Program-made: the position numbers and the translations under genes
In this document: piece by piece, positions 3,867-60,054 of the stretch
Position numbering within the stretch: the first letter of the stretch is position 1
How the letters are laid out: every line of letters starts with the position of its first letter
Assembly: GCF_003334305.1 (NCBI RefSeq)
Contig: NZ_QOWS01000016.1
DNA: 64,000 bases
Reading direction: 5' to 3' (one strand)
DNA from: Escherichia coli
Lineage (GTDB): Bacteria > Pseudomonadota > Gammaproteobacteria > Enterobacterales > Enterobacteriaceae
Notes under the pieces: generated by a model
Told to the model about the DNA's origin: nothing
Databases searched by the model: none
Seen by the model: the letters and a program-made list of their open reading frames with translations, nothing else

Positions 3867-4216
3867 TAACTCCTTTCGAGCACGCAGTCGCTGGTGCAGT
3901 GGCTGCGCGCTGCAAAATTATCTGCTGTTTTTAACCTTTTCTTAAAGATTGTTTCACTTATCTTGTGTCGATTTGGCTTTATCACATAGAGCAAATACGC
4001 ATAAAAATTTGTTAAATACCGTTTTTTAATCCGAGCTATAGTCTCAAACCCTGGCTAAAGTTATTCTTGCGATGCTTTTATATAGCGAGCAGTGCTGGCC
4101 GGGAGAGAGTTCTCTTTTCTTACACCGCGCCGATAAAAAATATGCACGTTTATTGCATATCTTTCAGTGTGACAACTTTTGTTCGTTTGTTAACGAACTT
4201 TCAGAAGGAAAGAGAT

Positions 4217-5329
4217 ATGACCGCCTTAAATAAAAAATGGCTATCGGGTCTGGTTGCGGGTGCTCTGATGGCCGTCTCTGTCAGCACGCTCGCGGCTGAA
4301 CAAAAAACACTCCACATTTATAACTGGTCTGATTATATCGCCCCGGACACGGTGGCCAATTTTGAAAAAGAAACCGGTATTAAAGTCGTCTACGATGTTT
4401 TCGACTCTAACGAAGTACTGGAAGGCAAATTAATGGCGGGGAGCACCGGCTTTGACCTGGTGGTGCCGTCAGCAAGCTTTCTTGAACGCCAGCTGACAGC
4501 GGGAGTTTTCCAGCCGCTGGACAAAAGCAAATTGCCGGAGTGGAAGAATCTCGACCCGGAACTGCTGAAGTTGGTCGCCAAACACGATCCCGACAATAAA
4601 TTTGCTATGCCCTATATGTGGGCGACGACCGGGATTGGCTATAACGTCGATAAAGTCAAAGCGGTGCTGGGCGAAAACGCGCCCGTCGATAGCTGGGACT
4701 TGATCCTCAAGCCTGAAAATCTGGAAAAACTGAAAAGCTGTGGCGTCTCTTTCCTGGATGCGCCTGAAGAAGTTTTTGCTACCGTGCTGAATTATCTCGG
4801 CAAAGATCCCAACAGCACTAAAGCAGATGATTACACCGGACCGGCAACCGATCTGCTGTTAAAGCTGCGCCCGAACATTCGTTATTTCCATTCATCGCAA
4901 TACATTAACGACCTGGCAAACGGCGATATTTGCGTCGCTATCGGCTGGGCAGGCGATGTCTGGCAGGCGTCAAACCGCGCGAAGGAAGCGAAGAATGGCG
5001 TGAATGTCTCTTTCTCGATTCCGAAAGAAGGGGCGATGGCGTTCTTTGATGTCTTCGCCATGCCTGCGGATGCCAAAAACAAAGACGAAGCCTATCAGTT
5101 CCTGAATTACCTGCTGCGCCCGGATGTAGTAGCGCATATTTCCGACCATGTGTTCTATGCCAACGCCAATAAAGCAGCCACGCCGCTGGTGAGTGCGGAA
5201 GTCCGTGAGAACCCGGGTATTTATCCGCCTGCGGATGTTCGTGCGAAGCTGTTCACTCTGAAAGTGCAGGACCCGAAAATCGACCGTGTGCGCACCCGCG
5301 CGTGGACCAAAGTGAAGAGCGGAAAATAA
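4217..5329 (+). CDS. potF: Putrescine ABC transporter periplasmic binding protein PotF
   Basis: ORF track 4067..5329 trimmed to ATG at 4217 (MTALNKKWLSGLVAGALMAVSVSTLA signal peptide), 370 aa. Confidence 0.9.
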   Translation: MTALNKKWLSGLVAGALMAVSVSTLAAEQKTLHIYNWSDYIAPDTVANFEKETGIKVVYDVFDSNEVLEGKLMAGSTGFDLVVPSASFLERQLTAGVFQPLDKSKLPEWKNLDPELLKLVAKHDPDNKFAMPYMWATTGIGYNVDKVKAVLGENAPVDSWDLILKPENLEKLKSCGVSFLDAPEEVFATVLNYLGKDPNSTKADDYTGPATDLLLKLRPNIRYFHSSQYINDLANGDICVAIGWAGDVWQASNRAKEAKNGVNVSFSIPKEGAMAFFDVFAMPADAKNKDEAYQFLNYLLRPDVVAHISDHVFYANANKAATPLVSAEVRENPGIYPPADVRAKLFTLKVQDPKIDRVRTRAWTKVKSGK

Positions 5330-5423
5330 TCCGCAGCCTTAGATGCCGGGCGGGCGCACCACACCCGCCGGCAATTCGCACCATCATGGTGCGCTTGCAC
5401 ACATTCAATGCCGGAGAGCTGCC

Positions 5424-6557
5424 GTGAATGACGCTATCCCTCGCCCCCAGGCGAAAACCCGTAAGGCGCTGACGCCGCTATTAGAAATCCGCAACCTGAC
5501 CAAATCCTACGATGGCCAACATGCGGTGGATGATGTCAGCCTGACCATCTACAAAGGTGAAATCTTCGCGCTACTGGGCGCATCCGGCTGTGGCAAGTCC
5601 ACGCTGCTGCGTATGCTGGCAGGTTTTGAACAACCTTCTGCCGGACAGATAATGCTTGATGGCGTCGATTTGTCACAGGTTCCGCCTTACCTGCGCCCCA
5701 TCAATATGATGTTTCAGTCTTACGCGCTGTTTCCGCATATGACCGTGGAACAGAACATCGCTTTTGGCCTGAAACAGGACAAACTACCGAAAGCGGAAAT
5801 TGTCAGCCGGGTCAATGAGATGCTCGGCCTGGTGCATATGCAGGAGTTCGCCAAACGCAAACCGCATCAGCTTTCCGGTGGTCAGCGACAGCGTGTGGCG
5901 CTGGCCCGAAGCCTTGCCAAGCGCCCGAAACTATTACTGCTCGACGAGCCGATGGGCGCGCTGGATAAAAAGCTGCGTGACCGGATGCAGCTTGAAGTGG
6001 TGGATATTCTGGAGCGTGTCGGCGTGACCTGTGTGATGGTCACTCACGATCAGGAAGAGGCGATGACGATGGCGGGACGTATCGCCATTATGAATCGCGG
6101 GAAATTTGTCCAGATTGGCGAGCCAGAAGAGATCTACGAACATCCAACCACCCGCTACAGTGCTGAATTTATCGGTTCGGTTAATGTCTTTGAAGGTGTA
6201 CTCAAAGAGCGTCATGAGGATGGGCTTGTGCTTTATTCGCCTGGGCTGGTGCATCCACTGAAAGTCGACGCGGATGCCTCGGTGGTCGATAACGTGCCGG
6301 TACATGTGGCGCTGCGCCCGGAAAAAATCATGCTTTGCGAAGAGCCGCCCGCCAATGGTTGTAACTTCGCGGTGGGGGAGGTGATACACATTGCCTATCT
6401 CGGCGATCTTTCGGTGTATCACGTTCGTCTGAAAAGTGGGCAGATGATTAGCGCCCAGCTACAAAACGCCCATCGTCATCGTAAAGGGTTACCGACCTGG
6501 GGCGACGAAGTGCGTTTGTGCTGGGAAGTGGACAGCTGTGTGGTGCTGACGGTTTAA
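5424..6557 (+). CDS. potG: Putrescine ABC transporter ATP-binding protein PotG
   Basis: ORF track 5343..6557 trimmed to in-frame GTG (VNDAIPRPQAK...), 377 aa; Walker A GASGCGKST, signature LSGGQRQR. Confidence 0.85.
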   Translation: MNDAIPRPQAKTRKALTPLLEIRNLTKSYDGQHAVDDVSLTIYKGEIFALLGASGCGKSTLLRMLAGFEQPSAGQIMLDGVDLSQVPPYLRPINMMFQSYALFPHMTVEQNIAFGLKQDKLPKAEIVSRVNEMLGLVHMQEFAKRKPHQLSGGQRQRVALARSLAKRPKLLLLDEPMGALDKKLRDRMQLEVVDILERVGVTCVMVTHDQEEAMTMAGRIAIMNRGKFVQIGEPEEIYEHPTTRYSAEFIGSVNVFEGVLKERHEDGLVLYSPGLVHPLKVDADASVVDNVPVHVALRPEKIMLCEEPPANGCNFAVGEVIHIAYLGDLSVYHVRLKSGQMISAQLQNAHRHRKGLPTWGDEVRLCWEVDSCVVLTV

Positions 6558-15326: not shown

Positions 15327-16153
15327 GAAGAGTCTTCTGGCTGATCGCTGCCGCTCTGTTACTGGCAGGGTGTGCAGGCGAAAAAGGCATTGTCGAGAAA
15401 GAGGGATATCAGCTTGATACCCGACGCCAGGCGCAGGCGGCGTATCCGCGCATTAGAGTGCTGGTGATCCACTACACCGCAGATGATTTTGATAGCTCGC
15501 TGGCGACACTGACCGATAAGCAGGTCAGCTCGCATTATCTGGTCCCTGCGGTACCACCGCGATACAACGGTAAACCGCGCATCTGGCAACTGGTGCCGGA
15601 ACAAGAACTGGCCTGGCATGCGGGGATTAGCGCCTGGCGCGGGGCAACGCGCCTTAACGACACCTCTATTGGCATTGAGCTGGAAAACCGTGGCTGGCAA
15701 AAATCGGCCGGAGTGAAATATTTTGCCCCGTTTGAACCGGCACAGATTCAGGCGCTTATTCCACTGGCGAAAGATATTATTGCCCGTTATCACATCAAGC
15801 CGGAAAACGTAGTGGCACATGCGGATATCGCACCGCAGCGCAAAGACGATCCGGGGCCATTATTTCCCTGGCAGCAACTGGCGCAGCAGGGGATTGGTGC
15901 CTGGCCGGATGCGCAGCGGGTTAACTTTTACCTTGCCGGGCGCGCGCCGCACACACCGGTAGATACCGCGTCATTGCTGGAGCTTTTGGCGCGCTACGGT
16001 TATGACGTTAAACCTGATATGACACCGCGCGAGCAGCGGCGCGTGATTATGGCATTCCAGATGCATTTCCGCCCGACGTTATATAACGGCGAAGCGGATG
16101 CAGAAACTCAGGCGATTGCCGAAGCATTGCTGGAGAAATACGGGCAGGATTAG
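15323..16153 (+). CDS. amiD: N-acetylmuramoyl-L-alanine amidase AmiD (lipoprotein)
   Basis: 276-aa ORF; lipoprotein signal (LLLAGCAG) and Amidase_2-type domain. Confidence 0.9.
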
Positions 16154-26457: not shown

Positions 26458-26882
26458 ATCCACCTCAATTAAAAATTGACCCTGTGAAAAATATGGTCGT
26501 TTTATAGGGTCGTCGTAAAAAAGTGACGACGGAAATAATGCGCGGCTATTTTAAAAACGAAGGCGAGTCATTCACCAGATAAATAAATCCAGTAAATTTG
26601 ATTTAGGGCAACAGCGGGTTGCCCCATATAGTCATTTGTCTGATTGACAGTGTAGTGCAAGCAAAAGATTTAATCCTTTAGGCGTAATAAAAAATAATTT
26701 ATCATGCTAATTATTTGATTTTGTTGTTTTTGCAGACTTATCAGCAAGAGGGAGTATAACGCGATTATTCGCTCATTTTTCAGACATTTGCCATGCTTAA
26801 ATGTGATGTCATCACGTATTAGCAAGGCCTTTCCCGTTATACTGCCAGCGTAAAGGATAAGTCACATATTTCTGGAGGGGAT

Positions 26883-28541
26883 ATGATTCTTGAGCGCGTT
26901 GAAATTGTGGGTTTTCGCGGTATCAACCGTTTGTCGTTGATGCTGGAACAAAACAACGTCCTGATTGGGGAGAACGCGTGGGGTAAATCCAGCTTGCTGG
27001 ACGCCTTAACCCTGCTGCTATCGCCAGAATCAGATCTCTACCATTTTGAGCGCGACGATTTCTGGTTCCCGCCGGGAGATATCAACGGGCGAGAACATCA
27101 TCTGCATATTATTTTGACCTTCCGCGAATCGCTGCCAGGCCGACATCGGGTTCGCCGTTATCGGCCGCTGGAAGCGTGCTGGACGCCATGCACCGATGGC
27201 TATCACCGTATTTTTTATCGTCTGGAAGGGGAGAGTGCGGAAGACGGCAGCGTGATGACACTGCGCAGTTTTCTCGATAAAGACGGACATCCGATTGATG
27301 TCGAGGATATTAACGATCAGGCACGCCATCTGGTGCGTTTAATGCCGGTGCTGCGCTTGCGTGATGCCCGTTTTATGCGCCGTATTCGTAACGGCACGGT
27401 GCCAAATGTTCCCAATGTGGAAGTCACCGCGCGCCAGCTCGATTTCCTCGCCCGTGAGTTGTCCTCACATCCGCAAAATCTCTCTGATGGACAGATTCGT
27501 CAGGGACTTTCCGCAATGGTGCAGTTGCTTGAGCATTATTTCTCTGAGCAGGGGGCTGGACAGGCGCGATATCGTTTAATGCGGCGGCGGGCCAGCAATG
27601 AGCAACGAAGCTGGCGCTATCTGGACATCATCAACCGGATGATTGACCGACCTGGAGGGCGCTCGTATCGGGTTATTTTGCTCGGCCTGTTTGCTACTTT
27701 ATTGCAGGCAAAAGGCACATTGAGACTGGATAAAGACGCGCGTCCGTTATTGCTAATTGAAGATCCAGAAACCCGCCTGCATCCGATTATGCTTTCCGTT
27801 GCCTGGCATCTGTTGAATCTTTTGCCTTTACAGCGTATTGCTACCACCAACTCTGGCGAGCTGCTTTCGTTAACTCCAGTGGAACATGTTTGCCGCCTGG
27901 TGCGTGAATCTTCTCGTGTTGCCGCCTGGCGTCTGGGGCCAAGTGGCTTGAGCACCGAAGACAGCCGCCGCATCTCTTTTCACATTCGTTTTAATCGTCC
28001 GTCATCGCTGTTTGCTCGCTGCTGGTTGCTGGTGGAAGGGGAAACGGAAACCTGGGTTATCAATGAACTGGCGCGTCAGTGCGGACATCATTTTGATGCC
28101 GAAGGGATCAAGGTCATTGAGTTTGCCCAGTCCGGGCTAAAGCCACTGGTTAAATTTGCCCGCCGAATGGGGATTGAATGGCATGTACTGGTCGATGGCG
28201 ATGAAGCAGGGAAGAAATATGCCGCTACGGTACGCAGCCTGTTGAATAACGATCGGGAAGCCGAACGAGAACATTTAACGGCGTTACCGGCGCTGGATAT
28301 GGAACATTTTATGTATCGCCAGGGATTTTCCGATGTGTTCCACCGCGTGGCGCAAATCCCGGAAAATGTACCGATGAATCTGCGCAAAATTATCTCGAAA
28401 GCGATCCATCGCTCTTCCAAACCCGATCTTGCCATTGAAGTGGCAATGGAGGCCGGACGTCGTGGTGTGGACTCCGTACCGACGCTGCTGAAAAAAATGT
28501 TCTCACGCGTGCTGTGGCTGGCGCGCGGTCGCGCGGATTAA
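26883..28541 (+). CDS. ybjD: OLD-family protein YbjD: N-terminal ABC-type ATPase plus C-terminal Toprim domain, predicted nuclease of unknown role
   Basis: 552-aa ORF with GGAGGGG RBS; Walker A GENAWGKSS (~nt 26967-26990); acidic Walker-B-like patch LLLIEDPE; Toprim glutamate in LLVEGETE (~nt 28035-28049) and DxD in VDGDEAG (~nt 28194-28205). Confidence 0.85.
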   Translation: MILERVEIVGFRGINRLSLMLEQNNVLIGENAWGKSSLLDALTLLLSPESDLYHFERDDFWFPPGDINGREHHLHIILTFRESLPGRHRVRRYRPLEACWTPCTDGYHRIFYRLEGESAEDGSVMTLRSFLDKDGHPIDVEDINDQARHLVRLMPVLRLRDARFMRRIRNGTVPNVPNVEVTARQLDFLARELSSHPQNLSDGQIRQGLSAMVQLLEHYFSEQGAGQARYRLMRRRASNEQRSWRYLDIINRMIDRPGGRSYRVILLGLFATLLQAKGTLRLDKDARPLLLIEDPETRLHPIMLSVAWHLLNLLPLQRIATTNSGELLSLTPVEHVCRLVRESSRVAAWRLGPSGLSTEDSRRISFHIRFNRPSSLFARCWLLVEGETETWVINELARQCGHHFDAEGIKVIEFAQSGLKPLVKFARRMGIEWHVLVDGDEAGKKYAATVRSLLNNDREAEREHLTALPALDMEHFMYRQGFSDVFHRVAQIPENVPMNLRKIISKAIHRSSKPDLAIEVAMEAGRRGVDSVPTLLKKMFSRVLWLARGRAD

Positions 28542-29530
28542 CCGCGAAACATCGTGGCCATTTGTGGCTGAATAGCGTCGAGCATCTCATAGCGCCGACG
28601 GTATTCAGCCCGTTTTTTACTGGCGATTTCGGCAATCTCTTTTCGTGCTATCTGTGCTGGAAGGCGGTAATGGCGTTCAGCATCACATACGCCGCCAACC
28701 GATTCCCAGAAAGCGTTGTAATCGGCATGGATCTTGCCTTCTTTATCACGATAACGCAGGCTGCGGTAAATATGCGTTTCATTGCTGACGGCAATAATCT
28801 GCTCTACCTGCAAACGTTGGGCAAACAGACAGGCCGCTTCCATCACGAGGCGTTTGGGAAATAGCCCGTGGCAGGCTTTCGTCGCATTCTGGATTTCCTG
28901 ATGTGGAATTTCCCATTTTGCGCCTTGCAGTCCGCCAATAAACATCGTTCTTTTCCCCTGATATTCACACAGGGTAAACGTGATCTCTGCCAGAGGAATA
29001 CCTTCGCTGTTGCGAAACAGGATTGTGCTGTCACCTTCTTTATCCATTGAGATCATCATGGTCAGCTCAAGCGTGAACTGCTCGCCGTTTTTGCCTTCCA
29101 GTTTAGCCAGTTGCAGCCCGGGGGTATTCAAATATAAGCTGAATTCTTCCGCCGACATACATCCGCGGAGTAACGCATAATGGTAACGTAACGCCTCCAG
29201 CAATTGCTTACGGCTAAGATTCGCCGCAAGGTAAGGGCGATGCAGACGCACAGGCAGTCGCGGTTGGCGCGTTAACAACACATTGAGATTAGGCCAGTGG
29301 GAAAGTTCGTTCATCCACTCAACGCTTAAACGCGGCATAATCAACGAGCGCAGCAAAAATTTCTGGCGAAAACTACGGCGATGCCAGAATTTACCCGGCC
29401 GACACTGTCCACGTGCCAGACTAAGAAAAAGTGACAGGCTGCTGAGAGATTCAGATGGCGTAAAGGTCCGTTCAGTTAGCTGCGACATATTCATGAAATC
29501 AATGGTTATACATGACGTCGATTTCACCAT
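28538..29530 (-). CDS. ybjX: VirK/DUF535-family protein YbjX
   Basis: 330-aa ORF; stop overlaps ybjD stop by ~3 nt (convergent). Alternative starts at ~29494/29488 (MNMSQLTER...) cannot be excluded; no clear RBS at any candidate. Confidence 0.7.
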   Translation of the reverse strand: MVKSTSCITIDFMNMSQLTERTFTPSESLSSLSLFLSLARGQCRPGKFWHRRSFRQKFLLRSLIMPRLSVEWMNELSHWPNLNVLLTRQPRLPVRLHRPYLAANLSRKQLLEALRYHYALLRGCMSAEEFSLYLNTPGLQLAKLEGKNGEQFTLELTMMISMDKEGDSTILFRNSEGIPLAEITFTLCEYQGKRTMFIGGLQGAKWEIPHQEIQNATKACHGLFPKRLVMEAACLFAQRLQVEQIIAVSNETHIYRSLRYRDKEGKIHADYNAFWESVGGVCDAERHYRLPAQIARKEIAEIASKKRAEYRRRYEMLDAIQPQMATMFRG

Positions 29531-29585
29531 TGCGTATCTTAACCAAACATCAATAGTGTGATTACTAACGTAAATTTTAGGGTTT

Positions 29586-29602
29586 TGTTGATATTTCGTT
29601 GA
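29586..29602 (+). promoter_or_regulatory. PhoP-box-like direct repeat in the ybjX-macA divergent region
   Basis: TGTTGA-tattt-CGTTGA hexamer direct repeat with 5-nt spacer, ~43 bp upstream of the macA ATG. Confidence 0.3.
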
Positions 29603-29644
29603 AGTTAATGACCCGGATTGGCATATGGAGTATTCAGAATATTT

Positions 29645-30760
29645 ATGAAAAAGCGGAAAACCGTGAAGAAGCGTTACGTTATTGCGCTGGTGATAGTCAT
29701 CGCCGGACTGATTACGTTATGGAGAATTCTTAACGCACCCGTGCCGACTTATCAGACACTGATTGTGCGCCCCGGTGATTTACAGCAAAGCGTGCTGGCG
29801 ACCGGAAAGCTGGACGCGCTGCGTAAGGTTGACGTGGGCGCGCAGGTCAGCGGTCAGTTGAAAACTCTGTCGGTGGCGATTGGCGATAAAGTAAAAAAAG
29901 ACCAGCTTTTAGGGGTTATTGATCCTGAACAGGCTGAAAACCAGATTAAGGAGGTCGAAGCAACGCTGATGGAGCTACGTGCGCAGCGGCAGCAGGCGGA
30001 AGCGGAGCTGAAACTGGCGCGGGTGACGTATTCCCGTCAGCAACGTCTGGCACAAACGCAGGCGGTTTCACAGCAGGATCTCGACACCGCCGCGACGGAG
30101 ATGGCTGTGAAACAGGCGCAAATTGGCACCATTGACGCGCAAATCAAGCGCAATCAGGCCTCTCTCGATACGGCTAAAACCAATCTCGATTACACTCGCA
30201 TCGTTGCCCCGATGGCCGGGGAAGTCACGCAAATCACCACTCTGCAAGGCCAGACGGTGATTGCCGCACAACAAGCACCGAACATTCTGACGCTGGCAGA
30301 TATGAGCACCATGCTGGTAAAAGCGCAGGTTTCTGAAGCGGATGTAATCCACCTGAAGCCGGGGCAAAAAGCCTGGTTTACGGTACTTGGCGATCCACTG
30401 ACGCGCTACGAGGGGCAAATCAAGGATGTACTACCGACGCCGGAAAAGGTTAACGACGCTATTTTCTATTACGCCCGTTTTGAAGTCCCCAACCCCAATG
30501 GTTTGCTGCGGCTGGATATGACTGCGCAAGTGCATATTCAGCTCACCGATGTGAAAAATGTGCTGACGATCCCTCTGTCGGCGTTAGGCGATCCGGTTGG
30601 CGATAATCGTTATAAAGTCAAATTGTTGCGTAATGGTGAAACACGCGAGCGTGAAGTGACGATTGGCGCACGTAACGATACCGATGTTGAGATTGTCAAA
30701 GGGCTTGAAGCGGGCGATGAAGTGGTGATTGGTGAGGCCAAACCAGGAGCTGCACAATGA
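29645..30760 (+). CDS. macA: Macrolide efflux membrane fusion protein MacA
   Basis: ORF track 29618..30760 trimmed to ATG at 29645 ([18 protein letters not shown]...), 371 aa; coiled-coil periplasmic adaptor. Confidence 0.9.
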
Positions 30761-59145: not shown

Positions 59146-60054
59146 TTATTGTGGTCGGTGACGCTGACTCTGGCAGATCTGACCCGTTTTTACATAATCG
59201 AGAAATGCGCGCAAGCCGCAGGACATATACTGGCGGTTTGGATAATAGATCTGGAAGCCTGGACGCTCTGTGCTCCAGTCTTCCAGTACACATTCTAAAC
59301 GACCAGTATCAAGGTACTCCTTGATCTGTTCATAGAGCAGATACCCGATACCAGCACCCATCAAAACGGCCTCCAGTTCAGCATCAACATCATCCAGAAT
59401 GATATTTCCTGCGACAGCAATTTCCAGCTCCTTTGCAAATTGCCAGTGGAAAGGTTTGCCGCTGGGATAACGAAAAACAACACATTGATGATTAAGCAGA
59501 TCATGAGGATGGCGGGGTTTGCCATATCTTGCAAAGTACTCTGGCGTTGCTGCTACACATAATTTCACTGGCGGGCCGATCGCCACGCTGATCATATCTT
59601 TTTCGACGATGCCACTAAGTCGAACGCCAGCGTCAAAGCCCTGTTGGACGATATCGACAAGAGAATCGTCAGTTGTGAGCTCGACTTTAATATCAGGATA
59701 TTCACGTGTGAAACCAACCAGTAAAGGCATTAAAAATATACGTGCAGCTACCCGGGCGGCATTGATTTTGAGCGTTCCTGTCGGTGTCAGACGAAAATCA
59801 TTCATCTCATCTAACATGATCTGAATTTCGTCGAAAGCTGGGCGCAATCGTTCATAGAGATTAGAACCCGCTTCCGTTAACGATACGCTTCGGGTTGTCC
59901 GATTGAATAAGCGAATTTTAAGACGTTGTTCCAGTGTTTTAATACTATGGCTAATGGCGGACGAGGATAAGCCTAATTCATCGCCCGCTGCACGAAAGCT
60001 TTGATTACGGGCCACGGCAAAGAAAGTGGCAAAGTCAGACATATTCATCCGCAT
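59146..60054 (-). CDS. ycaN: LysR-type transcriptional regulator YcaN
   Basis: 302-aa ORF with N-terminal HTH (FRAAGDELGLSSSAISHSIKTLEQRL) and LysR substrate-binding domain; divergent from ycaK. Confidence 0.85.
   Translation of the reverse strand: MRMNMSDFATFFAVARNQSFRAAGDELGLSSSAISHSIKTLEQRLKIRLFNRTTRSVSLTEAGSNLYERLRPAFDEIQIMLDEMNDFRLTPTGTLKINAARVAARIFLMPLLVGFTREYPDIKVELTTDDSLVDIVQQGFDAGVRLSGIVEKDMISVAIGPPVKLCVAATPEYFARYGKPRHPHDLLNHQCVVFRYPSGKPFHWQFAKELEIAVAGNIILDDVDAELEAVLMGAGIGYLLYEQIKEYLDTGRLECVLEDWSTERPGFQIYYPNRQYMSCGLRAFLDYVKTGQICQSQRHRPQ

What the first reader, a model, noticed from the sequence alone, without database searches (positions are those of the whole stretch)
28538..29530. 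ybjX (VirK/DUF535-like) converges on ybjD with overlapping stop codons
The ybjD stop (28539-28541) and the ybjX stop (28538-28540) overlap, so the two transcripts must terminate within or run into each other, and no intergenic terminator is present. Convergent overlap can couple expression through transcriptional interference. The ybjX start is also ambiguous (29530 versus ~29494/29488) and none of the candidates has a convincing RBS.
Basis: seen in the sequence. Interest (0 to 1): 0.3.

Follow-up and report, generated by a model that had tools for sequence, protein, structure and literature searches.

The report
Ordinary tail-to-tail overlap of ybjD and ybjX
Two E. coli genes on opposite strands end on the same four bases (TTAA), so their transcripts run into each other; this is a common and already catalogued arrangement, and the uncertain ybjX start has already been settled by published experiments.

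Summary
ybjD (+) ends with TAA at 28539-28541 and ybjX (-) ends with TAA on 28540-28538, giving the tetramer TTAA with no intergenic DNA.

It is not unusual:
- Two of the nine convergent junctions in this window are 4-nt stop/stop overlaps.
- The YTAR class has been described since 2007.
- 'ybjD-ybjX' is listed in the 2025 E. coli excludon map.

A 2021 dataset gives a Rho-dependent termination region on the minus strand, antisense to ybjD, about 0.9 kb past the ybjX stop. This fits ybjX transcripts reading into ybjD. For ybjD I found a hairpin plus T6 at 28566-28618, inside ybjX. It is kept in Escherichia only and no mapped 3' end supports it.

A ybjX-family gene overlaps ybjD in 46 of 48 species loci. 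The reason is mechanical: YbjD always ends Asp(GAY)-TAR, and the reverse complement of that contains a stop.

The start question is settled. The TSS (about 29512) lies downstream of the ATG at 29530, which sits just upstream of the -10 box. Translation starts at 29494 or 29488. Only 29488 is conserved across genera.

Regulatory coupling between the two genes is plausible but has not been shown.

The parts
26883..28541 (+). ybjD (proposed name oldB), a 552-aa stand-alone OLD-family ATPase/TOPRIM protein. It ends ...ARGRAD-TAA.
   Evidence: ORF. RefSeq annotation. Pfam DUF2813 plus OLD-like TOPRIM. PADLOC GajA/Old hits. PMC13261556.
28538..28541 (.). TTAA, the shared tetramer. ybjD stop TAA is 28539-28541. 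ybjX stop TAA is the reverse complement of 28538-28540.
28538..29494 (-). ybjX CDS as actually expressed: 318 aa from Met13 at 29494, or 316 aa from Met15 at 29488. VirK/YbjX (DUF535, PF04393) family.
   Evidence: PGAP annotation. Orthologues of 315-317 aa starting at Met15, which is invariant. Mutagenesis in PMC12562796.
29528..29530 (-). ATG of the longest ORF (the 330-aa MG1655 annotation). It lies upstream of the transcription start and just upstream of the -10 hexamer, so it is not a start codon.
   Evidence: PMC2760140. PMC12562796. MG1655 annotation. Promoter alignment.
29512..29513 (-). ybjX transcription start (accurate to +/-1 nt). This leaves an 18-nt leader without a Shine-Dalgarno sequence.
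   Evidence: Primer extension in Shigella (a T, 18 bp after the annotated ATG; the Met codons at +19 and +25). E. coli K-12 TSS at +18. Mapped onto the window sequence.
29521..29526 (-). -10 hexamer TGAAAT of the ybjX promoter, preceded by TG-G (extended -10-like).
   Evidence: Mutation of this hexamer abolishes promoter activity (PMC12562796). Most loci keep TGAAAT or a close variant.
29539..29555 (-). PhoP box TATTGA-N5-GGTTAA overlapping the -35 region.
   Evidence: PMC12562796. ATTGA-N5-GGTTAA is kept, often with small variations, in most Citrobacter, Salmonella, Silvania and Pseudocitrobacter loci.
28566..28618 (+). Terminator-like element for ybjD inside the ybjX coding sequence. Inverted repeat 28566-28580 / 28596-28610, then CG and T6 at 28613-28618.
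   Evidence: Inverted repeat of 15 nt, 93% complementary. RNA hairpin of -27.1 kcal/mol, z = -3.6. Kept in all Escherichia loci. No covariation across genera. T-run broken in many genera. No mapped 3' end in PMC7815308.
28018..28257 (-). C-rich, G-poor stretch of the ybjX read-through RNA (C/G 1.3-2.0 in 80-nt windows, peaking at 1.8-2.0). A candidate Rho loading region.
27656..27656 (-). [quoted passage not shown]
   Evidence: PMC7815308 supp. 2: reads upstream/downstream 299/18 without BCM and 568/545 with BCM, score 15.9, p = 6.9e-53. Coordinate transfer checked.

Best explanation
This is an ordinary, evolutionarily frozen 4-nt tail-to-tail overlap between two unrelated genes. One is ybjD (oldB), a stand-alone OLD-family ATPase/nuclease. 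The other is ybjX, a PhoP-activated VirK/DUF535 gene.

Because there is no spacer, each gene's termination signal lies inside the other's coding sequence.

ybjX:
- Shown: its mRNA starts at about 29512 from a PhoP-dependent promoter.
- Shown: it is translated from ATG 29494 or 29488.
- Shown: minus-strand RNA covers the 3' part of ybjD and is stopped by Rho, with the Rho-score peak at 27656.
- Inferred: that this minus-strand RNA is ybjX read-through.

ybjD:
- Inferred from sequence only: its mRNA runs past its stop and probably ends at a hairpin plus U6 at 28566-28618, or further on through Rho.

The two transcripts are therefore complementary over at least about 80 nt and up to about 0.9 kb. 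This matches the published listing of the pair as a convergent transcriptional overlap.

The overlap persists because YbjD always ends Asp(GAY)-TAR. The reverse complement of that, YTA-RTC, contains TAR one base in. The ybjX frame therefore always meets a stop there and nowhere earlier.
For: Sequence and annotation.

Conservation: 46 of 48 species loci keep a 4-nt overlap between ybjD and a ybjX-family gene, in all four variants TTAA, CTAA, TTAG and CTAG. In 41 loci the gene is ybjX itself. In 5 Kluyvera-group loci it is a second, ybjD-proximal ybjX-like copy. The two Siccibacter loci, where the ybjD stop is TGA, have a 3-4-nt gap.

Protein ends: the YbjD C-terminus (...WLARG[RK][AG]D) is nearly invariant. 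The last ~10 residues of YbjX vary in sequence but are almost constant in length.

Cost of losing a stop: loss of the ybjX stop would add about 150 aa. Loss of the ybjD stop would add about 10 aa.

How common it is: 2 of 9 convergent junctions in this window have 4-nt overlaps and 1 has a 0-nt gap. The class is described in PMC2174442.

Transcription: ybjD-ybjX appears in the excludon list. A Rho region lies antisense to ybjD. No U-tract terminator follows the ybjX stop on the minus strand.

Start: TSS and start codons are. Met15 is invariant and Met13 is found only in Escherichia.
Against: - The source of the minus-strand RNA antisense to ybjD is inferred to be ybjX read-through. An internal antisense promoter was not excluded; the consensus scan found none, but that is weak evidence.
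- The Rho coordinate comes from 800-nt comparison windows, so it is coarse.
- The ybjD hairpin/U6 has no mapped 3' end and is not conserved beyond Escherichia.
- I could not see the per-pair data behind the excludon listing, because no supplements are held.
Confidence: 0.8

Rival explanations
1. Functional excludon. When PhoPQ is activated (low Mg2+, cationic peptides), strong ybjX transcription reads about 0.5-0.9 kb into ybjD. It lowers ybjD expression through polymerase collision and/or RNase III cleavage of the sense/antisense duplex. The zero-spacer arrangement is kept by selection for this coupling.
For: - The pair is listed as a convergent excludon, and that paper reports that excludon pairs as a class are rarely co-expressed in single cells and are more syntenic.
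- Rho-limited antisense RNA over ybjD is present.
- YbjD is cytotoxic when over-expressed, so damping it could be useful.
- The junction is kept in 46 of 48 species loci, and the ybjX tail keeps its length although its sequence drifts.
Against: - No data specific to this pair show anticorrelated expression.
- Conservation of the overlap is explained without selection by YbjD's invariant Asp-TAR end.
- The same layout occurs at unrelated neighbouring pairs in the window.
- Both genes are weakly expressed in standard conditions, so collisions would be rare.
- A dataset in which ybjD rose together with arn genes after peptide treatment runs opposite to repression. Its strandedness is not stated, so this may be antisense signal.
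Confidence: 0.17
2. Clean, independent termination. Both transcripts stop within a few tens of nucleotides at intrinsic terminators embedded in the partner's coding sequence, so overlap is minimal and has no consequence.
For: The plus strand has a strong hairpin (-27.1 kcal/mol, z = -3.6) followed by T6, starting 24 nt after the ybjD stop. PMC2174442 notes that some E. coli convergent overlaps do use rho-independent terminators inside genes.
Against: - No hairpin plus U-tract follows the ybjX stop on the minus strand.
- Minus-strand RNA extends hundreds of nucleotides into ybjD and is bicyclomycin-sensitive.
- The pair is scored as overlapping in RNA-seq.
- Even the plus-strand element places the ybjD 3' end about 80 nt inside ybjX.
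- No Term-seq 3' end was reported there.
Confidence: 0.08
3. Annotation artefact. One of the two ORFs is called too long at its 3' end, and the real genes do not overlap.
For: The 5' end of ybjX was indeed over-called in the K-12 annotation.
Against: - Stop codons are not a matter of choice.
- Both reading frames are conserved up to the shared tetramer in 46 of 48 species loci.
- The YbjD C-terminus is nearly invariant.
Confidence: 0.01

Closest known systems
4-nt convergent (tail-to-tail) stop/stop overlaps, tetramers CTAA/TTAA/CTAG/TTAG (Lillo & Krakauer 2007, PMC2174442)
   Same: The geometry is identical: opposite strands, both stops inside YTAR, no spacer. That paper counts 58 convergent overlaps in E. 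coli and notes that any terminators must lie in coding sequence.
   Different: Nothing differs in kind.
Convergent excludons of E. coli MG1655 (ExcludonFinder, PMC12288877)
   Same: ybjD-ybjX is named in their list of 165 convergent pairs with overlapping transcription. So are amiD-ybjS and ycaM-ycaN from the same window.
   Different: An excludon in the strict sense implies mutually exclusive expression. That has been shown only for the class, not for this pair.
Rho-dependent suppression of antisense read-through (Rho termination regions of Adams et al. 2021, PMC7815308)
   Same: A bicyclomycin-sensitive region antisense to ybjD, as seen for many other 'antisense' regions downstream of convergent genes in that table.
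   Different: No discrete 3' end was mapped. The origin of the RNA at the ybjX promoter is inferred.
PhoP-activated promoters with a PhoP box over the -35 region (Salmonella/E. coli PhoP regulon; ybjX promoter in PMC12562796)
   Same: A direct repeat TATTGA-N5-GGTTAA lies upstream of a TGAAAT -10 box. The promoter is activated at low Mg2+ and depends on phoPQ.
   Different: The leader is only 18 nt, has no Shine-Dalgarno sequence in E. coli, and carries two usable ATGs 6 nt apart.

Membership tests
4-nt convergent stop/stop overlap (YTAR class) | Two genes on opposite strands whose in-frame stop codons both lie within one tetramer CTAA/TTAA/CTAG/TTAG | tested here: met
   TTAA at 28538-28541. 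Both ORFs end there. The same is seen in 46 of 48 species loci, with all four tetramers.
Convergent excludon | Transcripts of the two convergent genes overlap | not testable with these tools
   Literature only: listed in PMC12288877, and minus-strand RNA antisense to ybjD in PMC7815308. The sequence makes some overlap unavoidable because the spacer is 0 nt.
Convergent excludon | Expression of one gene excludes or lowers expression of the other | not testable with these tools
   No pair-specific data were found.
Intrinsic (Rho-independent) terminator, for ybjD | Stable G+C-rich hairpin followed directly by a U-tract, with a mapped 3' end in the U-tract | tested here: inconclusive
   Hairpin 28566-28610 of -27.1 kcal/mol, z = -3.6, then CG + T6. 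Kept in Escherichia. No covariation across genera. T-run absent in many genera. No Term-seq 3' end reported.
Intrinsic (Rho-independent) terminator, for ybjX | Hairpin plus U-tract downstream of the stop on the minus strand | tested here: not met
   The consensus scan places no minus-strand site within about 300 nt downstream of the ybjX stop; the nearest is at 28238-28221. Hairpins near 28560-28520 are not followed by U-runs. A T7 run (complement of 28493-28499) is not preceded by a closing stem.
Rho-dependent terminator, for ybjX read-through | Read-through on Rho inhibition; untranslated C-rich, G-poor RNA upstream | tested here: met
   The bicyclomycin effect is from the literature (score 15.9, p = 6.9e-53). 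The C/G ratio of 1.3-2.0 (peaking at 1.8-2.0) at 28257-28018 was computed here. The RNA past 28538 is untranslated in the ybjX frame.
VirK/YbjX family (Pfam PF04393, DUF535) | Match to the family profile over the whole protein | tested here: met
   All close homologues carry a precomputed PF04393 hit. PGAP names it 'VirK/YbjX family protein'. No NCBIfam or PADLOC model matched.
Class 1 OLD protein (ybjD) | N-terminal ABC-type ATPase plus C-terminal OLD-type TOPRIM, with no partner gene in an operon | tested here: met
   DUF2813 (residues 1-375) plus OLD-like TOPRIM (376-440). PADLOC GajA/Old models. Neighbours are aqpZ (divergent) and ybjX (convergent). Classification proposed in PMC13261556.

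The most novel reading that the evidence does not exclude
The zero-spacer junction works as a conserved switch. PhoPQ activation drives ybjX transcription through the 3' half of ybjD as antisense RNA. This turns down the potentially toxic OLD-family defence protein YbjD during envelope or low-Mg2+ stress, which would link an envelope-stress regulon to anti-phage defence across Enterobacteriaceae.
Probability: 0.15. Interest if true: 0.45.

Novelty: already known. Interest (0 to 1): 0.12.

Why it matters
It matters little as a discovery. The overlap is in the reference annotation, its class is textbook, the pair is already in a published list of overlapping transcripts, and the start codon has been determined experimentally.

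Two practical points remain:
1. The MG1655 RefSeq record still carries the 330-aa ybjX. Its first 12 codons lie upstream of the mapped start of transcription, within the promoter.
2. Deleting or replacing either gene (for example the Keio mutants) alters the 3' untranslated region and terminator of the other. Phenotypes assigned to ybjX or ybjD mutants should be checked for effects on the partner.

If the PhoP-to-ybjD antisense link were real, it would be a neat case of a stress regulon tuning a defence nuclease.

Tried and rejected
1. Conserved RNA structure at the junction. The E. coli hairpin (28566-28610) was tested on a 39-species alignment. Pairing and covariation were no higher than in column shuffles, and RNAalifold found no consensus helix. 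It was rejected as a family-wide element.

2. The T-run as a selected terminator tail. The T-run is the antisense of the invariant Lys-Lys of YbjX. Many species use AAG AAG there, including most ybjD-proximal Kluyvera copies. There is no sign of selection for it.

3. Known RNA families. Rfam found nothing at E <= 1 over 27400-29700.

4. Sigma-70 promoter scan for an internal antisense promoter in ybjD. None was found on the minus strand. This is weak evidence.

5. Term-seq 3' ends at the junction in PMC7815308. None were reported.

6. Other 3'-end and antisense datasets. Dar & Sorek 2018 and the iRAP paper have no supplements held. Ju 2019, Thomason 2015 and Peters 2012 are not held.

7. Pair-level data from ExcludonFinder. 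No supplements are held.

8. Expression studies that might show ybjX/ybjD anticorrelation. Nothing usable was found.
Full report
**Identity of the region.** The window is E. coli chromosome. Bases 26800-29700 are 100% identical to NZ_CP027462.1 and are present in 5425 of 5426 complete E. coli genomes. The genes are aqpZ (-), ybjD (+, 26883-28541), ybjX (-, stop at 28538), macA and macB (+). K-12 MG1655 has no indels relative to the window across ybjD-ybjX and is identical over 28480-28660. K-12 coordinates therefore transfer as window = MG1655 - 889590.

**The observation.** The sequence reads ...GCG GAT TAA CCG.... ybjD ends Asp-TAA at 28539-28541. ybjX, read on the other strand, ends ...TTC CGC GGT TAA, with its stop on 28540-28538. 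The two genes share TTAA (28538-28541) and there is no intergenic DNA. The three ATGs named for the ybjX start (29530, 29494, 29488) exist, and none is preceded by a Shine-Dalgarno sequence.

**How unusual it is.** It is not unusual.
- The identical strain's annotation gives nine convergent junctions in this 64-kb window.
- Two of them are 4-nt stop/stop overlaps: ybjD/ybjX, and amiD/ybjS with TTAG at 16150-16153.
- One has a 0-nt gap (ycaN/ycaM).
- Lillo and Krakauer (PMC2174442) counted 58 convergent overlaps in E. coli. [quoted passage not shown] They also point out that such genes must carry any terminator inside coding sequence.

**Conservation and its cause.** A scan of one genome per species returned 48 loci with a ybjX relative.
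- In 41 loci the ybjX stop and the ybjD stop overlap by exactly four bases.
- In five further loci (Kluyvera and relatives) a second ybjX-like copy sits between ybjX and ybjD, and that proximal copy overlaps ybjD by four bases.
- Only the two Siccibacter loci differ. There the ybjD stop is TGA and a 3-4-nt gap is present.
- All four possible tetramers occur.

The cause is visible. YbjD ends ...WLARG(R/K)(A/G)D in every genus, so the DNA is GAY-TAR. Its reverse complement, YTA-RTC, always contains TAR one base in. The ybjX frame therefore always meets a stop there. The last ten or so residues of YbjX drift in sequence, and gain or lose whole codons, but contain no earlier stop. Loss of the ybjX stop would add about 150 residues, whereas loss of the ybjD stop would add about 10. 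The conserved overlap needs no regulatory explanation, although it does not exclude one.

**Where the ybjX transcript ends.** Nothing on the minus strand in the first ~300 nt past the ybjX stop resembles an intrinsic terminator: the hairpins there are not followed by U-runs. Adams et al. 2021 (PMC7815308, supplementary file 2) list a Rho termination region on the minus strand classed as 'antisense ybjD'.
- The best coordinate is 917246, which is window 27656.
- Read counts in the 800-nt windows upstream/downstream are 299/18 without bicyclomycin and 568/545 with it.
- The Rho score is 15.9 and p = 6.9e-53.

So minus-strand RNA covers several hundred nucleotides of ybjD antisense and is stopped by Rho. 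The read-through RNA has a C-rich, G-poor stretch at 28257-28018. No promoter-like site was found on that strand inside ybjD. The simplest source is therefore ybjX read-through, but this is an inference.

**Where the ybjD transcript ends.** I found an inverted repeat at 28566-28580 / 28596-28610.
- It folds into a hairpin of -27.1 kcal/mol (z = -3.6; 1 of 200 shuffles folds as well), followed by CG and T6 at 28613-28618.
- It starts 24 nt after the ybjD stop and lies inside ybjX codons, as the antisense of ...SKKRAEYRRRYEMLDAIQP....
- It is kept in all Escherichia loci.
- Across genera there is no covariation, and the T-run is often broken by AAG codons.
- No Term-seq 3' end was reported anywhere near the junction.

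It is a plausible, genus-level terminator for ybjD, but it is unverified.

**Do the transcripts overlap, and are the genes coupled?** ExcludonFinder (PMC12288877) lists ybjD-ybjX among 165 convergent pairs with overlapping transcription in at least half of 58 MG1655 RNA-seq samples. I found no evidence for this pair that one gene's expression affects the other. The class-level claim of mutual exclusion rests on sparse single-cell data.

**The start of ybjX.** This is settled in the literature.
- Mendoza-Vargas et al. 2009 mapped the K-12 TSS at +18 of the annotated ATG. They concluded that the annotation is wrong and that the protein starts at Met13 (PMC2760140).
- The 2025 Shigella study mapped the same TSS by primer extension and killed the promoter by mutating the -10 TGAAAT.
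- That study also showed that Met13-to-Leu or Met15-to-Leu alone leaves YbjX levels unchanged, while the double mutant abolishes the protein (PMC12562796).

On the window this puts the TSS at 29512 (+/-1), the -10 at 29526-29521 and the PhoP box at 29555-29539. The 29530 ATG falls just upstream of the -10 hexamer, and its TG sits where an extended -10 TG would be.

My alignments add three points.
- Met15 (29488) is invariant across genera.
- The Met13 ATG exists only in Escherichia.
- In other genera a weak GGAT lies 10-13 nt upstream of the ATG; in E. coli it has decayed to TGAT. The 'no convincing RBS' remark therefore holds for E. coli.

PGAP already annotates the 318-aa form. The MG1655 record still has 330 aa.

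**The proteins.** YbjX belongs to PF04393/DUF535 and is PhoP-regulated. YbjD has DUF2813 plus an OLD-like TOPRIM domain, hits GajA/Old models, and was recently described as a class 1 OLD protein that is toxic when over-expressed (PMC13261556).

**Verdict.** The one open and mildly interesting question is whether PhoP-driven ybjX read-through tunes ybjD. I give that about 15%.

Noticed in passing
window 16150-16153: A second 4-nt stop/stop overlap in the same window: amiD (+, TAG 16151-16153) and ybjS (-, TAA on 16152-16150), tetramer TTAG. This pair is also in the published excludon list.
   Followed up: partly
window 59184-59185: ycaN and ycaM converge with a 0-nt gap: the stop codons abut and there is no spacer. 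This pair is also in the excludon list.
   Followed up: no
L015, L017, L018, L020, L021, L024, L042 (about 4000-6140 in each): Kluyvera species and one unnamed Enterobacteriaceae isolate carry two ybjX-like genes in tandem. The second copy is about 51% identical to E. coli YbjX in the two loci where this was measured (L020, L042). The copy next to ybjD keeps the 4-nt overlap.
   Followed up: partly
L041 and L043 (about 4943-4952): In Siccibacter the ybjD stop is TGA, ybjX has its own TAG two codons earlier, and the genes are separated by 3-4 nt. These are the only loci without the overlap.
   Followed up: partly
window 29521-29530 (- strand); NC_000913.3 918128-919120: The ATG of the 330-aa ybjX annotation still present in the MG1655 RefSeq record lies just upstream of the -10 hexamer (TG-G-TGAAAT) and upstream of the mapped TSS. 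PGAP records use the 318-aa form.
   Followed up: yes
window 29495-29512 (- strand); loci L009-L050 upstream of the ybjX start: The 18-nt ybjX leader has no Shine-Dalgarno sequence in E. coli (TGAT). Most other genera keep a weak GGAT 10-13 nt before the conserved ATG.
   Followed up: partly
window 29512-29645: The ybjX and macA promoters are back to back. The published macA TSS, 73 bp upstream of its ATG (29645), maps to about 29572. That leaves roughly 58-60 bp between the two start sites, with overlapping -35 regions. The ORF listing also offers a longer macA ORF from TTG at 29618.
   Followed up: no
ybjD (window 26883-28541), literature: In a UTI89 transcriptome after cathelicidin-like peptide treatment, 'ybjD' rose together with arnF (PMC6737244). 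The text does not say whether the library was strand-specific. If it was not, the signal could be PhoP-induced ybjX read-through antisense RNA rather than ybjD mRNA.
   Followed up: partly
Salmonella Typhimurium ybjX, literature: A proteogenomics study reports a peptide suggesting an unannotated frameshift in S. Typhimurium ybjX (PMC7593589).
   Followed up: no
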